Assembly: GCA_002686445.1 (NCBI GenBank) | Contig: NZCO01000007.1 | Coordinates: forward strand, 5,483-69,482 | DNA from: a bacterium | GTDB lineage: Bacteria; Patescibacteriota; Andersenbacteria; UBA10190 | Length of the DNA: 64,000 nt | Reading direction: 5' to 3' | Shown: piece by piece, positions 47,752 to 57,444 of the stretch | How the letters are laid out: each line of letters starts with the position of its first letter | Position numbering within the stretch: the first letter of the stretch is position 1 | Notes under the pieces: model-generated | Seen by the model: the letters and a program-made list of their open reading frames with translations, nothing else | Told to the model about the DNA's origin: nothing | The model's database searches: none | Position numbers and translations under genes: made by a program

Positions 47752-48178
47752 ACTATTTGCACCGACAATACCCGGACGAGTTCAAGCAGTGGCTGTCGCC
47801 AGCAGTGTAGTGCTATTGGGCGCGGTCATACATTTCATCCGGCGCGGGCAGTTGAAGGCTGGGTATTCGATCATCTGGTTTGTCATCGGACTAGCGCTCG
47901 TTGTTTTGTCTTTAGCGACTCGATTACTCGACAGCTTCGCCCGACTCGTAGGGATCAACTATTCGCCAGCAGCGCTCGTGCTAGTGCTCGGTGGTGGATT
48001 ATTCATCTTGGCACTACACTACTCAGTTATGGTTACCAAGCACGATCGACGCATTCGCGAGCTCGCTCAGGAACACGCGCTGCTCAAGGCGCAGCTGCGA
48101 CTGGAAAAACAATCACCCGTTACCGGTGTGAGCGTTGCTGCCTCCGAGCCGCTGCCCCTTAAGGAAAAGGTGCAATGA
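47735..48178 (+). CDS. DUF2304-family membrane protein
   Basis: 3 TM segments, 'YS..W', 'A.LVGI', 'I.ELAQE.ALL'; directly follows a DPM1-like GT2. Confidence 0.8.
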   Translation: MSLLAELFAPTIPGRVQAVAVASSVVLLGAVIHFIRRGQLKAGYSIIWFVIGLALVVLSLATRLLDSFARLVGINYSPAALVLVLGGGLFILALHYSVMVTKHDRRIRELAQEHALLKAQLRLEKQSPVTGVSVAASEPLPLKEKVQ

Positions 48179-49155
48179 AAATCTTAGTTACCGGCGGGGC
48201 TGGCTTTATTGGCTCGCACTTGGTTGAGTTCCTCTTGAAGCATGGTGATGAGGTGATCGTTCTTGATGATTTATCTACTGGACGACTTGAAAATTTAGCC
48301 GACGTGGCGGAGCATCCCGCGTTACAGGTGACGGAAGGCAATGTTACTGACGAGAAGCTAGTTGATGAGCTCGTGCCCAACGTGGATGTCGTGTATCACC
48401 TAGCCGCTTCTGTCGGAGTGAAGAATATCGTCGATAATCTAGTCGAGTCGATTGAAAACAATGTGCGTGGCACGGAAGTAATCTTACGAGCGGCATCAGA
48501 TAATATGAAGCGCATACTACTAACGTCAACCTCTGAAGTGTACGGCCGGACGAACGACGAACCATTTCGCGAGGACGATGATCTACGTATAGGGCCGACG
48601 CGCAAAACGCGCTGGTCGTATGCCTGTTCCAAAGCACTCGATGAGTACCTAGGTTTCGCCTACTACCACGAACGCCAGCTACCGGTGACCGCAGTCCGGC
48701 TCTTTAACACCGTGGGCGAGCGACAGACAGATCAGTACGGCATGGTGCTGCCCACGTTTGTACGGCAAGCCGTTGCCAATGAGCCCATCACCATTTACGG
48801 CGACGGCTCGCAGTCCCGCTGCTTTTGTCACGTAAGCGATGTAGTAACCGCCATACATGGATTAATGAGCAGCCCGGAGACAGCTGGCGAGGTTTATAAC
48901 ATCGGGAGCACAGAAGAGCTTTCGATGAACGACCTGGCCGAGCGAGTACGCACTGTGCTTGGTAGTACCAGTGAAATTACGTATGTGCCGTATGCGGAGG
49001 CGTATAAGGTGGGGTTTGATGACATCTCGCGACGAGTGCCAGATATCAGCAAATTGCTGTCGACTATGGCGTGGAAGCCAACCATCGGCCTTGATGAAAT
49101 CATCACCAGAGTCGCGGCAGCCCAGCAGGAACAGCGAGTGGCAGAAAACGCGTAA
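48175..49155 (+). CDS. NAD-dependent epimerase/dehydratase
   Basis: GGAGFIGSH, TSEVYG, Y..SK, GDG.QSRCF. Confidence 0.9.
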   Translation: MKILVTGGAGFIGSHLVEFLLKHGDEVIVLDDLSTGRLENLADVAEHPALQVTEGNVTDEKLVDELVPNVDVVYHLAASVGVKNIVDNLVESIENNVRGTEVILRAASDNMKRILLTSTSEVYGRTNDEPFREDDDLRIGPTRKTRWSYACSKALDEYLGFAYYHERQLPVTAVRLFNTVGERQTDQYGMVLPTFVRQAVANEPITIYGDGSQSRCFCHVSDVVTAIHGLMSSPETAGEVYNIGSTEELSMNDLAERVRTVLGSTSEITYVPYAEAYKVGFDDISRRVPDISKLLSTMAWKPTIGLDEIITRVAAAQQEQRVAENA

Positions 49156-49226
49156 AAGCGTCTTGAAACGGCGTTGACACCAAAAGCTCGTGTGCCATGG
49201 TGTGTGATATCGTAGCCTAAGTCACA

Positions 49227-49391
49227 GTCCACAAATAACTTAGTTATCTCTCGCCCACTATGCACCAATCTACAACTTTTACTTCGTCACGAAACACTCA
49301 CCGTAAGTTGATTACGCCTCATGTTTCGCTCGGTCGTAAAAGTCGTATCTCGGCACATATTGAACGAGATATGCCCAAGTTATTTGCGGAC
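49227..49391 (-). ncRNA. Putative 165-nt rod-like structured RNA (or hairpin element)
   Basis: Nested inverted repeats over the whole length; seven G-U pairs and no A-C pairs in the stems on the minus strand; candidate promoter immediately upstream. Confidence 0.55.
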
Positions 49392-49398
49392 GGCGCCT

Positions 49399-49426
49399 AA
49401 GATACATGAGACAGTTATATCGACAA
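49399..49426 (-). promoter_or_regulatory. Candidate promoter for the rod-like RNA
   Basis: Minus strand TTGTCG (49426-49421), 16 nt, TATCTT (49404-49399), 7 nt, then the first base of the hairpin (49391). Confidence 0.4.
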
Positions 49427-51520
49427 TTACTGATAGTGTTGTTTTTTGCCCTAATTACGGTCGCTATGAGCGCTCCGGCGATAGGCAATATGACCTCGCA
49501 TATTATCGGTCAGGGCGGTGACCCTTGGCAGACCTTATGGCGCTTTGAGCACAAGTATGAAGCCTTAGTCACGGCGCTCGACAGCGGCGGTATTGGTGAA
49601 TTCACAGCCTCTGAATTTTTTGGTCGGGGAGGAGAGCGACTCGTTAACCTATCCGTATGGCCGTGGATGCCAGTGTACGCATTATTCGGACAGCCTCAGG
49701 CGTACAACTTAGTGTGGCTACTCTCGTTCGCCCTCAGCGGTTACGCTATGTATCTGCTCGCTCGATGGTGTATACGTGAATACGCCGTGCCAAGTGAGTC
49801 GATAGCGATCGAGACAGGGGCGATACTAGCAGGGCTGACCTATCAGCTGCTCCCCTTTCACGTGGCACACAGCTACGGACACTTTGGCGCCATGCAGTTG
49901 CAGTGGCTACCACTGTTGTTTTTGGTGCTCTTTTTGTGGCTGAAGCGGCCGACGACTTGGCGGACCATTGGTCTCGCTGCACTCATCACCGTTCAGACTT
50001 GGACAGAGCATCACTATGCACTGTGGTTCGCCATCGCGACTGCGATAATATTCTGGCTGCAGCGTGCGCAGATCAAGCGGCTGCGACATGTTGTGGCCAC
50101 GCGCAAACAATTTCTGTTGCTGGTAGTACTACTCATATTCATTACGCTGCCCTCCATCACGCCCACCGTGCAGTTGGCGACTAGCGACACGACACTTACT
50201 TTAGGGGCCGAGCAGACAGTGCGCTTCTCGGCGGATGCGTTTGCCTACCTGGTGCCAGCGTCATTTCACTCACTCTGGGGTGGTTTCTTCAACACATTTT
50301 TTACCCATCGCTTCACCGGCAACGTAACGGAATCAACAGCCTACCTAGGGATCATCCCGCTGCTGTTGATAATCTTCTTTCACCACAAAGTGCCCGGGTC
50401 ACAACTGAAGCTGTGGCTAACACTAGGTGTTACGTTCTGGCTGCTTAGTTTGGGTCCCCGCCTACACTTGCTCGGACTCGTTACACCGCTGCCGTTGCCA
50501 TACGCGATAATCGACGGCTGGCCCATCTTCTCTGCGATTCGAGCAGTTGGTCGAGCTGGTATAGTCGTCGGTATGAGTCTCGCAGTACTGCTTGGCTGGG
50601 TTGTGGCTACGCAGGTCAAACGACAGAAGTTTGCTTACCTACTTGGTGTCTTATTGCTCGTTGAGTTCTTATTTCTGCCCATGCCACTCATTCCGGCAGT
50701 GCTCTCACCAGCGTACAGCGCCACGCGATCGCTCAGCGGCACCTCCGTTATCGAATTGCCAGCCGCCACCAACTACACCGCCGGCTCACGTGCACTGTAT
50801 GCCACGCTAACGCACGGCAAAGCTGTCGTCGGTAATATTGCCCTGGAGCGCGCCTTGAGTGGTACAGCGCTCACTGAAGCACAATCATTGCCCTCCTTAC
50901 GTCAACTACTGCACTTGCGCACGACACACATTAGACAAGATCGCAACGATTTCTTTGAGCAAGATCCAGTCGAAACCCTGCCGGATACGTTACGTTGGTT
51001 AGATGCTGGTGGCATTTTGGTACACACCGACTCGTTGTCTGTATTACAGCTGGCTACCGTACGAGATTTTCTTGAGGACGACCTTGGCCTCACGCCAGTC
51101 ATGTACGATGATGCGTTGCTCTATGACACAGCGTCACTACTAGAGGGTGCGGTCACTGATGGCGTCTTCATGTCACGCGATGGTCGCTGGGAGAACGTCG
51201 GTTACGATGAGGAACGCGACAGTGTGTTTGCTGAACTAACTAGCGAGGCTAGTACGACACTGTATAACGTAACGACCAGACCACAGGCGGTGCGCCTCAC
51301 CTTCACCATCCCTGATGAGTCACAAGGCAACATGTTAGTTACCGCAGCTAACGGAGCTACAGTCGCCGACGTGGCCGCCACCGCTGGCGAAACCGTCACT
51401 GTTACCTATCAACTACTACCGGGAAGTACCGAATTAACGTGGCGCAACAAGCTGACGCAAAAGGTTATTTTACAGAACCCAGTCCTGTCGGTTTCGAGCA
51501 ATGAGGTCTCAGCGCGCTAA
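49406..51520 (+). CDS. GT-C/YfhO-like multi-pass membrane protein
   Basis: 'GGDP...LW', 'AYNL', 'GH', 'FSAD', 'E.TAYLG', 'R.VGR', 'HGK..VG'. Confidence 0.75.
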   Translation: MRQLYRQLLIVLFFALITVAMSAPAIGNMTSHIIGQGGDPWQTLWRFEHKYEALVTALDSGGIGEFTASEFFGRGGERLVNLSVWPWMPVYALFGQPQAYNLVWLLSFALSGYAMYLLARWCIREYAVPSESIAIETGAILAGLTYQLLPFHVAHSYGHFGAMQLQWLPLLFLVLFLWLKRPTTWRTIGLAALITVQTWTEHHYALWFAIATAIIFWLQRAQIKRLRHVVATRKQFLLLVVLLIFITLPSITPTVQLATSDTTLTLGAEQTVRFSADAFAYLVPASFHSLWGGFFNTFFTHRFTGNVTESTAYLGIIPLLLIIFFHHKVPGSQLKLWLTLGVTFWLLSLGPRLHLLGLVTPLPLPYAIIDGWPIFSAIRAVGRAGIVVGMSLAVLLGWVVATQVKRQKFAYLLGVLLLVEFLFLPMPLIPAVLSPAYSATRSLSGTSVIELPAATNYTAGSRALYATLTHGKAVVGNIALERALSGTALTEAQSLPSLRQLLHLRTTHIRQDRNDFFEQDPVETLPDTLRWLDAGGILVHTDSLSVLQLATVRDFLEDDLGLTPVMYDDALLYDTASLLEGAVTDGVFMSRDGRWENVGYDEERDSVFAELTSEASTTLYNVTTRPQAVRLTFTIPDESQGNMLVTAANGATVADVAATAGETVTVTYQLLPGSTELTWRNKLTQKVILQNPVLSVSSNEVSAR

Positions 51521-54945: not shown

Positions 54946-56204
54946 AACTTTTGTTCTTAAGTTCGTTATATCCGCCACATAGTAAGGGTGGCGGTGAAAT
55001 TTCAACTCACTTAGTAGCTCGCGGACTCGTACAGCGCGGACATAGTGTCACGGTGATCACGGGTGCCGCCGGTAGCGAGCGTGGTGCGCGAACTCGCGAG
55101 CTCGATGGTGTGCATATCAAGGAAGTGTCCCTGCCGCTGACGGCCAAGCCGCTCTTTGAACGCCAGCATGCGCGGCGTATCGCCACCAGCTTAGCTGAGT
55201 TCATACCCGGCCTGGCGAAGTTCGATGTGGTTCATGCCCACGACTTCCGATCCGCCCTGGTACTCCACGAGCTCGTTCGGGCCGGCATCGTACCGCGAGC
55301 GAGCGCGACTGTTACAGCCCGCGACTATGCGCAAATATGTGGCTCCCCCAACAACTTGATGGCGGATGGACAGTCGTGCACTGACTGTGCCCGTCTGTCA
55401 TGTATTGTCCGAAACCAGGCCGTGGTGGAAGCTTCCCTGCTGCGACGCCCTTTTCGTATCTGGCAGTACTGGTACAACATCGGCTATCGCCGCAAGGCAT
55501 TTCTGTCATTTGCCTCACAGATATTTATTTCTAATGCGCAGCAACAGGAAATAGCTGCGATTCAAGATCTGAGCGCGCAGACTACAGACGTTATATATAA
55601 TCCAGTTGCGCCAAACTATTTGAGTAAAAAAACGAACTCGGGATTCGGGCAGACCATTTTGTATACGGGTCGCGTTCAGCACTACAAGGGAGTGGGCCTG
55701 CTACTTGAGGCATTTCGCAAGCTACTGACAACGCACCCCGACATGCAATTGCGAATCGTGGGGGATGGCGACCAAAGGCAAGAGTATGAGGCGCTGGTAG
55801 CGCGGTGGGGGCTGCAGTATAAAATCAGGTTCACTAATCACGTAGCGTATGAACGATTAGTTGACCTGTATGACGAGGCCGCGATTGTGGTTGCTCCACA
55901 CGTGTGGGTGGAGCCCTTCGGACGCACTGTGGTCGAGGCAATGGCTCGAGCACGCATCGTCGTCGTAGCTGATACGGGCGGGCCTGCTGAAGTGGTGACA
56001 AACGGCCAGACCGGGTATACGTTTCGGGCAGGCGATAGTGCCGACCTAGCCCACACTATGGGCCACGCCCTCGCATCCGGCGAACTTCGTCGCCGGGCGC
56101 TGCAACGTCAAGCGCGCACCTGGGTGACTGACAACATTTCTATGGACATGATCGCCTCACGCTACGAGGATTTTTACCGCCGAGCCGTTATTGGGAGCCG
56201 ATGA
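54942..56204 (+). CDS. GT4 glycosyltransferase with Cys-rich insertion
   Basis: 'GGGE', 'KGV', 'EPFGRTVVEAMA'. Confidence 0.9.
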   Translation: MKLLFLSSLYPPHSKGGGEISTHLVARGLVQRGHSVTVITGAAGSERGARTRELDGVHIKEVSLPLTAKPLFERQHARRIATSLAEFIPGLAKFDVVHAHDFRSALVLHELVRAGIVPRASATVTARDYAQICGSPNNLMADGQSCTDCARLSCIVRNQAVVEASLLRRPFRIWQYWYNIGYRRKAFLSFASQIFISNAQQQEIAAIQDLSAQTTDVIYNPVAPNYLSKKTNSGFGQTILYTGRVQHYKGVGLLLEAFRKLLTTHPDMQLRIVGDGDQRQEYEALVARWGLQYKIRFTNHVAYERLVDLYDEAAIVVAPHVWVEPFGRTVVEAMARARIVVVADTGGPAEVVTNGQTGYTFRAGDSADLAHTMGHALASGELRRRALQRQARTWVTDNISMDMIASRYEDFYRRAVIGSR

Positions 56205-56213
56205 TATCCCCGG

Positions 56214-56390
56214 TCCGCCTCCGCCAGCAGGCGGGTGGCGGAGTCGCGGGAGTGGGAGGCTTTCGTAAATGTTGCGGCGGCGGCCGCCTCTCTGCCAACA
56301 AAACGACCCTGGTTCCATTCGCCTCGCAAATACCCCGTGGCAATATGCCTGCTGGCAGGCAGGGCCACGGGGTGGCGAATGGATCGTTTT
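56214..56390. repeat. Cluster of GC-rich nested palindromes (REP/IS200-IS605-end-like)
   Basis: TCCGCC.CCGCC-agca-GGCGG..GGCGGA, and a long interrupted stem at 56300-56390 containing ACCCCGTGGC/GCCACGGGGT and TGCCTGC/GCAGGCA. Confidence 0.65.
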
Positions 56391-57444
56391 ATAAGTACGT
56401 AAGCGCTGCCTGCTCTACTTGCACGGTCGTGAGACCAAGCAGCGACTCATGTGTAGTTTGACCCAGATCTTGCTGCAGCTCGGTCGTATAGACAGCGCTA
56501 CTACCCTCCGCTCGCAAGCTGACAGCCTCCTGACCTCTCGGGCCAGTTAACTGCTCATCAGTTGGCCCGAATAAACCAATTGTCGGCGTGCCGGTGGCTG
56601 CCGCTAAATGCATTAATCCTGAGTCATTCGCCACTACCGCAGCACACTGTTGCATAACGCCAGCGGTCGCCAACAACGACCCAGACACAGCTGATGCATG
56701 TCTGCCGATGCCTGCAACCAACCTATTTTTTAAATCACCTTCATCTGGTCCACCGAAAACCGCTACATGGGCGTTGTGTTTAGTCGTTAGGGTACGGCCC
56801 AGCTCAATAAACCGCTCGCGCGGCCAGCGCTTCCAGGCAAAATCGGGTGCTGAGCCAGCGTGGAGCCCTACCAAGCGACGGGAGGCGTCAATGCGCATGC
56901 CCGCAATCAGTTTTTCAGCCGCAGCCTTGTCTGCTGGCTCCAGTGGGGGAATCGAATACGGGCTATTGTGGTACGGCGAATCATCGATACCCAGCTCGCT
57001 CAGCAGCCGTAGGTTCTGCTCGATGTCATGCATGCCCTCTACTTCGGGAATCGCCCTTGTTAGCAAAAAAGAACTTTTGGGATTGCCTAGGTATGCATAG
57101 TGATGGCCAATGCGTTCATGTATGCCGGCCAAGAACATCTGGGCGGCGCCTTTCCACAACTGCCCGGGAGATAGCATGATGGCGAGATCAAAACGCCGCG
57201 AGATCAGGTTCCAAGTGTGTAGTCCCGTCAGCAGCACTGACCGTCGGATCGGGGCTTCAATAACCTTATCGACGTTCGGATCAGCTAAGGCGAGCGCCTT
57301 CGTGCCGCGCGGTGCCACCCACACTGTAATCTTCGCGCTGGGCCACTCCTCCTTGAGCGCCGCAATCGTCGGCGCCTGCATTAGGTAGTTACCAATGCCC
57401 GACAACGACAGAAATAGTATTTTTTGCGATTGGTCTGAATCCAT
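56389..57444 (-). CDS. GT9 (heptosyltransferase-like) glycosyltransferase
   Basis: 'SGIGN', 'KRWP..RF', 'NDSGLMHLAAA.GTPT.GLFGPT'. Confidence 0.9.
   Translation of the reverse strand: MDSDQSQKILFLSLSGIGNYLMQAPTIAALKEEWPSAKITVWVAPRGTKALALADPNVDKVIEAPIRRSVLLTGLHTWNLISRRFDLAIMLSPGQLWKGAAQMFLAGIHERIGHHYAYLGNPKSSFLLTRAIPEVEGMHDIEQNLRLLSELGIDDSPYHNSPYSIPPLEPADKAAAEKLIAGMRIDASRRLVGLHAGSAPDFAWKRWPRERFIELGRTLTTKHNAHVAVFGGPDEGDLKNRLVAGIGRHASAVSGSLLATAGVMQQCAAVVANDSGLMHLAAATGTPTIGLFGPTDEQLTGPRGQEAVSLRAEGSSAVYTTELQQDLGQTTHESLLGLTTVQVEQAALTYL

What the first reader, a model, noticed from the sequence alone, without database searches (positions are those of the whole stretch)
49227..49391. Unannotated 165-nt rod-like RNA candidate with strand-specific G-U pairing and its own promoter
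Seen: the largest intergenic gap folds end to end. Stems are 49227-41/49377-91 (15 bp), 49245-50/49366-71, 49253-68/49350-65, 49271-82/49336-47, 49290-96/49322-28 and 49302-06/49312-16. On the minus strand all seven transition mismatches inside these stems are G-U pairs, and the internal loops are purine-rich (GA/GA, GACCGAG/UGACGAA, UGAGG/GUGAG). On the plus strand the same positions are A-C. A TTGTCG-N16-TATCTT promoter sits 7 nt before the first paired base on the minus strand. Inference: random decay of a DNA palindrome should give G-T and A-C equally per strand, so this bias points to selection on a folded single strand, probably a small RNA transcribed opposite to both neighbouring genes. 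I recognise no family: no SRP domain IV, tRNA, tmRNA or RNase P motif, and no large 6S-type bubble on that strand.
Basis: partly seen in the sequence, partly recalled or inferred. Interest (0 to 1): 0.78.

Follow-up and report, generated by a model that had tools for sequence, protein, structure and literature searches.

The report
Replication-oriented hairpin mini-transposon (ISAzo13 MITE)
The hairpin is real, but it is one of many scattered copies of a 177-base gene-less jumping element with ISAzo13-type ends, not a stand-alone RNA gene; one strand folds far better than the other and nearly always lies on the chromosome's C-rich strand whichever way the neighbouring genes point, so the fold likely matters as single-stranded DNA during replication.

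Summary
The rod is real (minus strand z -14.5, plus -7.5; no Rfam hit), but it is not a single-copy small RNA. It is a 177-bp MITE at 49221-49397 with 21-bp terminal inverted repeats like those of autonomous ISAzo13 elements and a 3-bp TWA duplication, shown by empty sites. There are 8 copies in this genome and about 22, 28 and 1 in three relatives. The proposed promoter is flanking DNA that other copies lack. The fold is unusually well kept: 40 of 67 pairs change on both sides, new G-U outnumber new A-C 31 to 11, and the A's of tandem G-A loops are nearly invariant. The better-folding strand lies on the C-rich strand in 53 of 57 copies (48 of 49 in relatives), also where both neighbours are sense to it, so orientation follows replication, not transcription. 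Best reading: a transposase-moved MITE whose fold likely acts as single-stranded DNA at the fork, like integron attC sites; a fold with no function, kept by template switching, remains a close rival. The scan noted this element family, and one-strand rod MITEs, before on other DNA; the replichore link was in none of the notes I saw.

The parts
49221..49397 (-). 177-bp non-autonomous element (MITE); the minus strand folds end to end as a bulge-free rod (position i pairs with 178-i)
49377..49397 (-). 5' terminal inverted repeat, 21 bp, pattern GGCGCC-N6-AAATAACTT, of ISAzo13 type
49221..49241 (-). 3' terminal inverted repeat, 21 bp; ends GTGAC, giving the family's G-A and G-T end asymmetry
49398..49400 (-). 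target-site duplication, copy 1 (TTA on minus)
49218..49220 (-). target-site duplication, copy 2 (TTA on minus)
49348..49349 (-). tandem G-A internal loop (partner 49269-49270)
49330..49336 (-). central 7x7 loop (partner 49282-49288); family consensus has two tandem G-A flanking two T-T; hotspot for nested short hairpin insertions in relatives
49298..49320 (-). tip: tandem G-A (49319-49320 with 49298-49299) closing the apical stem-loop 49302-49316; similar tips in other rod families
48175..49155 (+). neighbour: NAD-dependent epimerase/dehydratase (PF16363, PF01370), context only
49406..51520 (+). neighbour: 704-aa ORF without Pfam match, context only

Best explanation
It is a 177-bp gene-less transposon (MITE) with ISAzo13-type ends that duplicates a TWA target, is likely moved by an ISAzo13 DDE transposase supplied in trans, and carries a one-strand fold-back rod that likely acts as single-stranded DNA at the replication fork rather than as an RNA gene. 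Shown: dispersed copies with unrelated flanks, 21-bp inverted repeats, 3-bp duplication at C-TWA-G, covarying rod, and the better-folding strand on the C-rich strand. Inferred: the C-rich strand is the leading-strand template (standard GC-skew convention, recalled). Model: when the strong strand is the lagging-strand template it snaps into a rod that brings the two ends together, so such copies are copied or excised and seldom persist; copies whose weak strand (A-C, T-C mismatches) is exposed stay put. G-T and tandem G-A pairs give one strand a stable fold and the other a weak one, as in integron attC sites. Template switching between the arms likely supplies the many double changes. About 0.95 for MITE, 0.85 for ISAzo13 as mover, about 0.55 for a functional DNA-level fold.
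For: 8 copies in G000, about 22 in G013, 28 in G021, 1 in G010. Identical 3-bp flanks in 44 of 57 copies, 6 of them TAA/TAA; 10 of 10 empty copies of a host repeat have one TTA where the filled copy has two. A 1319-bp element with near-identical ends encodes an ISAzo13 transposase (NF033519, 588 bits); G021 holds an intact ISAzo13 with TAA/TAA flanks whose end matches the MITE end at 15 of 21 bases. 96.3% of cells paired, 40 of 67 pairs changed on both sides against 20 in shuffles and 9-13 in slid controls. Interior on a tree: WC to G-U 31, WC to A-C 11, p 0.003; loops show G>A 31 vs A>G 9 and C>T 4 vs T>C 8, so deamination of the rod strand does not explain it. Tandem G-A adenines change 0.8 times per column against 3.8 for other unpaired columns (p 2e-4). 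Same strand folds better with DNA parameters in 29 of 29. Rod strand on C-rich strand in 53 of 57, including all 5 relatives' loci called sense on both sides; genes confirmed on both sides at L027, L032 and L042. The element itself is G-rich on that strand (+0.27), against its flanks. attC precedent: PMC5371416.
Against: No ISAzo13 transposase in G000 (80% complete), G013 or G010. The orientation could come from the transposase inserting with a fork-linked polarity, with no role for the fold: the one autonomous copy in G021 also has its sense strand on the C-rich strand. Not every MITE with these ends is a rod (L115, L079, L109, L152 have inner z of -1 to 0.3 on the best strand; L211 is branched), so the fold is not required for movement. 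The strand gap is smaller with DNA than RNA parameters (10 vs 33 kcal/mol). In G000 itself the skew is weak and only 5 of 8 copies fit; two G021 copies (L021, L275) break the rule. No SbcD was found in the four genomes, which removes one route for counter-selecting the other orientation. Other rod families gave no usable skew signal. Copies are related by descent, so counts are not independent.
Confidence: 0.55

Rival explanations
1. ISAzo13-type MITE whose rod has no function: template switching keeps the arms complementary, the G-T and G-A asymmetry is inherited from a founder, and the orientation bias comes from fork-coupled insertion by the transposase.
For: 134 double differences against 40 expected on a minimum spanning tree, 39 of them transversions, and a CAA/TTG loop inversion point to arm-to-arm copying (mechanism in PMC8794818 abstract). 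Many IS families show replication-linked orientation (PMC3971601 passages). Non-rod MITEs with the same ends exist.
Against: Copying should erase wobbles and loops, yet tandem G-A adenines are as conserved as paired adenines (0.8 vs 1.3 steps), new G-U exceed new A-C, and tandem G-A rods recur in families with unalignable interiors.
Confidence: 0.25
2. MITE whose rod is selected as RNA, in antisense or read-through transcripts (for example a processing or stability element, as described for ERIC, Correia and bcr1 repeats).
For: G-U and sheared G-A pairs are typical RNA features; the strand gap is larger with RNA energies; MITE transcripts often fold and are cut by RNases (PMC10969869, PMC3184786 passages).
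Against: Orientation follows the C-rich strand in sense, antisense, convergent and divergent gene settings alike; no shared promoter; mostly the weak strand would be in mRNA.
Confidence: 0.13
3. A stand-alone small RNA gene with its own sigma-70 promoter.
For: Strong one-strand fold and a promoter-like pair of hexamers at this copy.
Against: Dispersed copies, target duplication, empty orthologous sites, patchy presence (4 of 101 genomes), promoter outside the element and not shared (3 of 55 copies have a similar arrangement).
Confidence: 0.03
4. A REPIN-like or IS200/IS605-like hairpin moved as single-stranded DNA by a HUH (Y1) transposase.
For: All 4 carrier genomes have Y1 transposase matches; one-strand folding and replication-linked orientation are typical of such elements (PMC3971601 passages).
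Against: True 3-bp duplication that covaries (TAA/TAA), ends matching ISAzo13, and no copy of the element in the six Y1 loci searched (one weak partial hit E 0.015).
Confidence: 0.04

Closest known systems
ISAzo13 family insertion sequences (NCBIfam NF033519, Pfam PF07592; e.g. ISNpu10, ISNsp4)
   Same: Terminal inverted repeat pattern GG-x-x-CC-N6-AA(A/T)TAACTT and TWA flanks, seen in autonomous elements L100, L184, L218.
   Different: No transposase gene; the interior is a fold-back rod that shows no similarity to the autonomous elements beyond the ends.
Bacterial MITEs with hairpin folds (ERIC, Correia/nemis, Nezha, bcr1)
   Same: Short, intergenic, multi-copy, inverted ends, target duplication, stable predicted fold; compensatory changes are reported for bcr1 (PMC3184786, PMC10969869 passages).
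   Different: Other transposase family; bulge-free rod with conserved tandem G-A loops; polarity tied to the replication strand, which I did not find described for a MITE in my searches.
Integron attC sites (works like, not a member)
   Same: Imperfect palindrome with a G-rich, better-folding strand that in sedentary integrons mostly lies on the leading-strand template (25 of 30; PMC5371416 passages).
   Different: Dispersed single copies with a target duplication, no cassette array, no R/L boxes or extrahelical bases seen, DDE-type ends rather than tyrosine-recombinase sites.
REPINs and IS200/IS605 ends
   Same: Gene-less hairpins with strand-specific folding.
   Different: 3-bp duplication and ISAzo13 ends; short REP-like hairpins here are passengers inserted into the rod.

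Membership tests
MITE (non-autonomous class II element) | short, no transposase gene | tested here: met
   177 bp, intergenic
MITE (non-autonomous class II element) | terminal inverted repeats | tested here: met
   21-bp repeats in all copies
MITE (non-autonomous class II element) | target-site duplication shown by empty sites | tested here: met
   44 of 57 identical flanks; 10 of 10 empty host repeats with one TTA
MITE (non-autonomous class II element) | multiple dispersed copies with unrelated flanks | tested here: met
ISAzo13-derived MITE | ends like those of autonomous ISAzo13 | tested here: met
   L100, L218, L184 15 of 21
ISAzo13-derived MITE | same 3-bp AT-rich duplication as autonomous elements | tested here: met
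   L184 TAA/TAA; L100 and L218 TTA/TAA flanks; the 3-bp family rule is recalled, not from a call
ISAzo13-derived MITE | cognate transposase in the same genome | tested here: inconclusive
   present in G021, not found in G000 (80% complete), G013, G010
ISAzo13-derived MITE | movement by that transposase | not testable with these tools
   needs a transposition assay
Known Rfam RNA family (6S, SRP, others) | match at gathering score | tested here: not met
   one search gives only generic plant-miRNA hairpin hits far below cut-off for one related element
Independent small RNA gene | own conserved promoter and single syntenic locus | tested here: not met
Independent small RNA gene | discrete transcript | not testable with these tools
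   no RNA run could be listed
Integron attC | array of cassettes with RYYYAAC/GTTRRRY boxes and extrahelical bases | tested here: not met
   single dispersed copies, symmetric bulge-free register; box consensus recalled
REPIN / IS200-IS605 derivative | no target duplication; association with a Y1 transposase | tested here: not met
   duplication present; no element in six Y1 loci
PIF/Harbinger-ISL2 (IS5) MITE | DDE_Tnp_4 transposase with matching ends | tested here: not met
   PF13359 in 0 of 4 carrier genomes; matching ends flank PF07592 instead

The most novel reading that the evidence does not exclude
A cross-phylum class of rod MITEs presents its two ends to a DDE transposase as a folded single DNA strand at the replication fork, using G-T and tandem G-A pairs and a shared tip to choose the strand, so that orientation to the fork switches a copy between mobile and stored states; this would be an attC-like single-strand step in a transposase family assumed to work on double-stranded DNA.
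Probability: 0.2. Interest if true: 0.8.

Novelty: new variant of a known kind. Interest (0 to 1): 0.42.

Why it matters
As a MITE it is ordinary. What is not ordinary is a gene-less DDE-type element that keeps a strand-specific fold with non-canonical pairs across genera and phyla and sits with near-fixed polarity to the replication strand. ISAzo13 has almost no mechanistic literature in the library searched (13 papers mention it), and its orientation could not be assessed in a genome-wide survey for lack of copies (PMC3971601). This family gives a small, testable substrate for asking whether folded single-stranded DNA takes part in DDE transposition. It is also a caution: covariation plus G-U bias does not prove an RNA gene.

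Tried and rejected
Rfam at gathering and E-value thresholds: nothing relevant. Promoter/terminator scan: none at the element. Expression: no RNA holder listed; this is no evidence either way. PIF/ISL2-type transposase PF13359: 0 of 4. First gene-orientation count (32 antisense-antisense vs 2 sense-sense) was biased by a codon model trained on leading-strand genes and was replaced. Deamination of the rod strand as source of G-U: rejected by the loop spectrum. A widespread exact tip motif: 1 of 301 genomes of another phylum against 2 control hits; in viral contigs only 2 of 44 distinct hits sit in long rods. Plasmids: no DNA match. Viral hits to the end motif were single ends with no partner seen, several at gene starts. 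Origin of the interior from ISAzo13 ends: no similarity in four autonomous loci. Reverse transcriptase: 2 of 4 carrier genomes, absent from G013 with about 22 copies, so no support for an RNA intermediate. MutS and SbcD: 0 of 4 each. GC skew around rods of other phyla: uninformative. One review with the family description was not held.

Full report
Observation. The minus strand folds at -89.2 kcal/mol (z -14.5), the plus strand at -53.1 (z -7.5). Rfam has no match. The neighbours are an epimerase/dehydratase and a 704-aa ORF without a Pfam match, both on plus, in a glycosyltransferase cluster.

It is a repeat. The own genome (G000, 921 kb, 80% complete) holds 8 copies. Of 101 genomes searched by DNA only G000, G010, G013 and G021 have strong matches; G013 has about 22 loci, G021 about 28 (two cut by contig ends) and G010 one. 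Titled records carrying the same family are labelled mostly Candidatus Andersenbacteria. A covariance model found it in 2 of 150 genomes of the phylum, G000 included. Alignment with flanks sets the unit at 177 bp, window 49221-49397, with 21-bp inverted ends and unrelated flanks. The three bases on either side are identical in 44 of 57 copies, 38 TTA/TTA and 6 TAA/TAA, in a C-TWA-G context (two overlapping partial calls and one mis-registered copy left out). The G010 copy sits inside another repeat; 10 of 10 empty copies of that repeat in G021 have one TTA where the filled one has two. An orthologous locus in G010 lacks a G021 copy.

The mover. A scan of genome contigs with the end motif gave 114 stretches from many phyla. 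One, L100, is a 1319-bp element with both ends of this type around a 407-aa ISAzo13 transposase (NF033519 588 bits, PF07592). PF07592 was found in 1 of 35 genomes of the family, G021, as an intact element with TAA/TAA flanks whose end matches the common MITE end at 15 of 21 bases (my count), and in 6 of 401 of the phylum, one with an end very close to the MITE's (L218). It was not found in G000, G013 or G010. PF13359 was in 0 of 4. So the element is a MITE with ISAzo13-type ends; movement by that enzyme is inferred.

The fold is preserved. In 28 aligned copies 96.3% of cells pair (86.5% shuffled) and 40 of 67 pairs change on both sides (20 shuffled; 9-13 slid). In 30 distinct 174-180-nt copies the helices hold 1662 Watson-Crick, 268 G-U, 23 A-C and 55 other cells; longer copies with insertions were left out of this count. 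On a tree, interior pairs go WC to WC 43 times, WC to G-U 31 and WC to A-C 11 (p 0.003). Loops show G>A 31 vs A>G 9 and C>T 4 vs T>C 8, so deamination of the rod strand is not the cause. The adenines of the tandem G-A loops change 0.8 times per column against 3.8 for other unpaired columns (p 2e-4) and 1.3 for paired adenines (p 0.22), and G-A is replaced mainly by A-A, as expected of sheared pairs (recalled). Double differences (134 vs 40 expected, 39 transversions) and a CAA/TTG loop inversion suggest arm-to-arm template switching, which can by itself create covariation (PMC8794818, abstract and outline seen). The same strand is stronger with DNA parameters in 29 of 29 copies, by a smaller margin. 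Other 156-181-nt elements with these ends, in Patescibacteria, Proteobacteria and metagenomes, are also rods with tandem G-A loops and mostly the same end polarity though their interiors do not align by BLAST. Several elements with these ends are not rods (L115, L079, L109, L152, L211), so the fold is not obligatory.

Orientation. The rod strand lies on the C-rich strand in 53 of 57 copies, 48 of 49 outside G000 and 5 of 8 in G000, where skew is weak (two partial calls and two same-locus duplicates dropped). Six further copies add five that fit and one that does not. My first gene count suggested a purely antisense rule but missed genes with the minority codon skew. With longest ORFs the relatives show 19 antisense-antisense, 5 sense-sense, 9 convergent, 9 divergent and 7 partly uncalled settings, all C-rich but one; family matches confirm sense genes on both sides at L027, L032 and L042. 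Orientation therefore follows the replication strand, not transcription. By the usual convention (recalled) the C-rich strand is the leading-strand template, so the weakly folding strand is the one exposed at the fork. The element is G-rich on its rod strand (+0.27) against its flanks. [quoted passage not shown] Fork-linked insertion bias is known for several IS families and could not be judged for ISAzo13 (PMC3971601, passages); the single autonomous copy in G021 also has its sense strand on the C-rich strand, which fits that rival. MutS and SbcD were not found in the four genomes.

Mechanism. Shown: dispersed MITE, TWA duplication, ISAzo13-type ends, conserved one-strand rod, polarity to the C-rich strand. 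Inferred: movement by ISAzo13 transposase in trans; homogenisation of arms by template switching; a role of the rod as folded single-stranded DNA, with copies persisting mainly in the orientation that exposes the weak strand. I put 0.55 on this, 0.25 on a functionless fold with insertion bias, 0.13 on an RNA-level role, 0.04 on HUH mobilisation and 0.03 on an independent small RNA.

Literature and earlier notes. Searches for ISAzo13 gave 13 papers, one also naming MITEs, whose passages do not describe such an element; searches on folded MITEs and on MITE orientation showed none either in their listings. The library lacks most subscription journals, and no supplements were read. Reviews (PMC10969869, PMC3184786; passages) state that MITEs commonly fold and that bcr1 shows compensatory changes. 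PMC8604942 was seen only as a listing. The scan's own notes had already filed this family as an ISAzo13-type MITE in other genomes and had noted one-strand rods in MITEs of several IS families; they are unchecked AI notes, and I reached the ISAzo13 assignment before reading them. Verdict: a new variant of a known kind, interest about 0.42.

Noticed in passing
G000 C5 copy (L232:2001-2199) and 23 long copies in G013/G021: Short REP-like hairpins of 18-80 nt are inserted into the rod, clustered at positions 62-66, 95, 113 and 131-133 (in or beside internal loops); the same insertions recur at many loci, so enlarged copies kept moving. Y1 transposases, possible movers of these passengers, occur in 4 of 4 carrier genomes.
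   Followed up: partly
L265-L274 (G021), L132:2444-2730: A second dispersed repeat of about 115 bp with C-rich/G-rich inverted ends and TTTAC at both sides, at least 10 copies in G021; it hosts the G010 copy of the MITE.
   Followed up: partly
L304:183-342 and L278:231-392 (viral contigs): Two rods with the same tip and, in L304, the same tandem G-A loops, but different ends (L304 may have a 4-bp TTTA duplication), hinting that the rod module travels with other end types.
   Followed up: partly
G000, G010, G013, G021: No MutS and no SbcD match in any of the four carrier genomes, which may help long imperfect palindromes persist.
   Followed up: no
7 of 55 copies, e.g. L227, L060, L101: The duplicated TAA is the stop codon of an abutting ORF of at least 100 codons.
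   Followed up: no
L051, L050, L277, L049, L193: Internal deletion derivatives of 68, 118, 134, 150 and 153 nt keep both ends.
   Followed up: no
L181 (G102): A longer ISAzo13 form with an extra upstream region and an apparent frameshift at an A-run; an unrelated inverted repeat lies just beyond its end.
   Followed up: no
window 56201-56461: A short ORF contains a PAGRQ peptide, which may come from the same short palindromic repeat that is nested in the C5 copy; that repeat has several matches in G000.
   Followed up: no
L021 and L275 (G021 C9, 3.8 kb apart): The two clear exceptions to the orientation rule in G021 are neighbours; L021 sits at the base of a near-identical clade, so it could be a source copy.
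   Followed up: no
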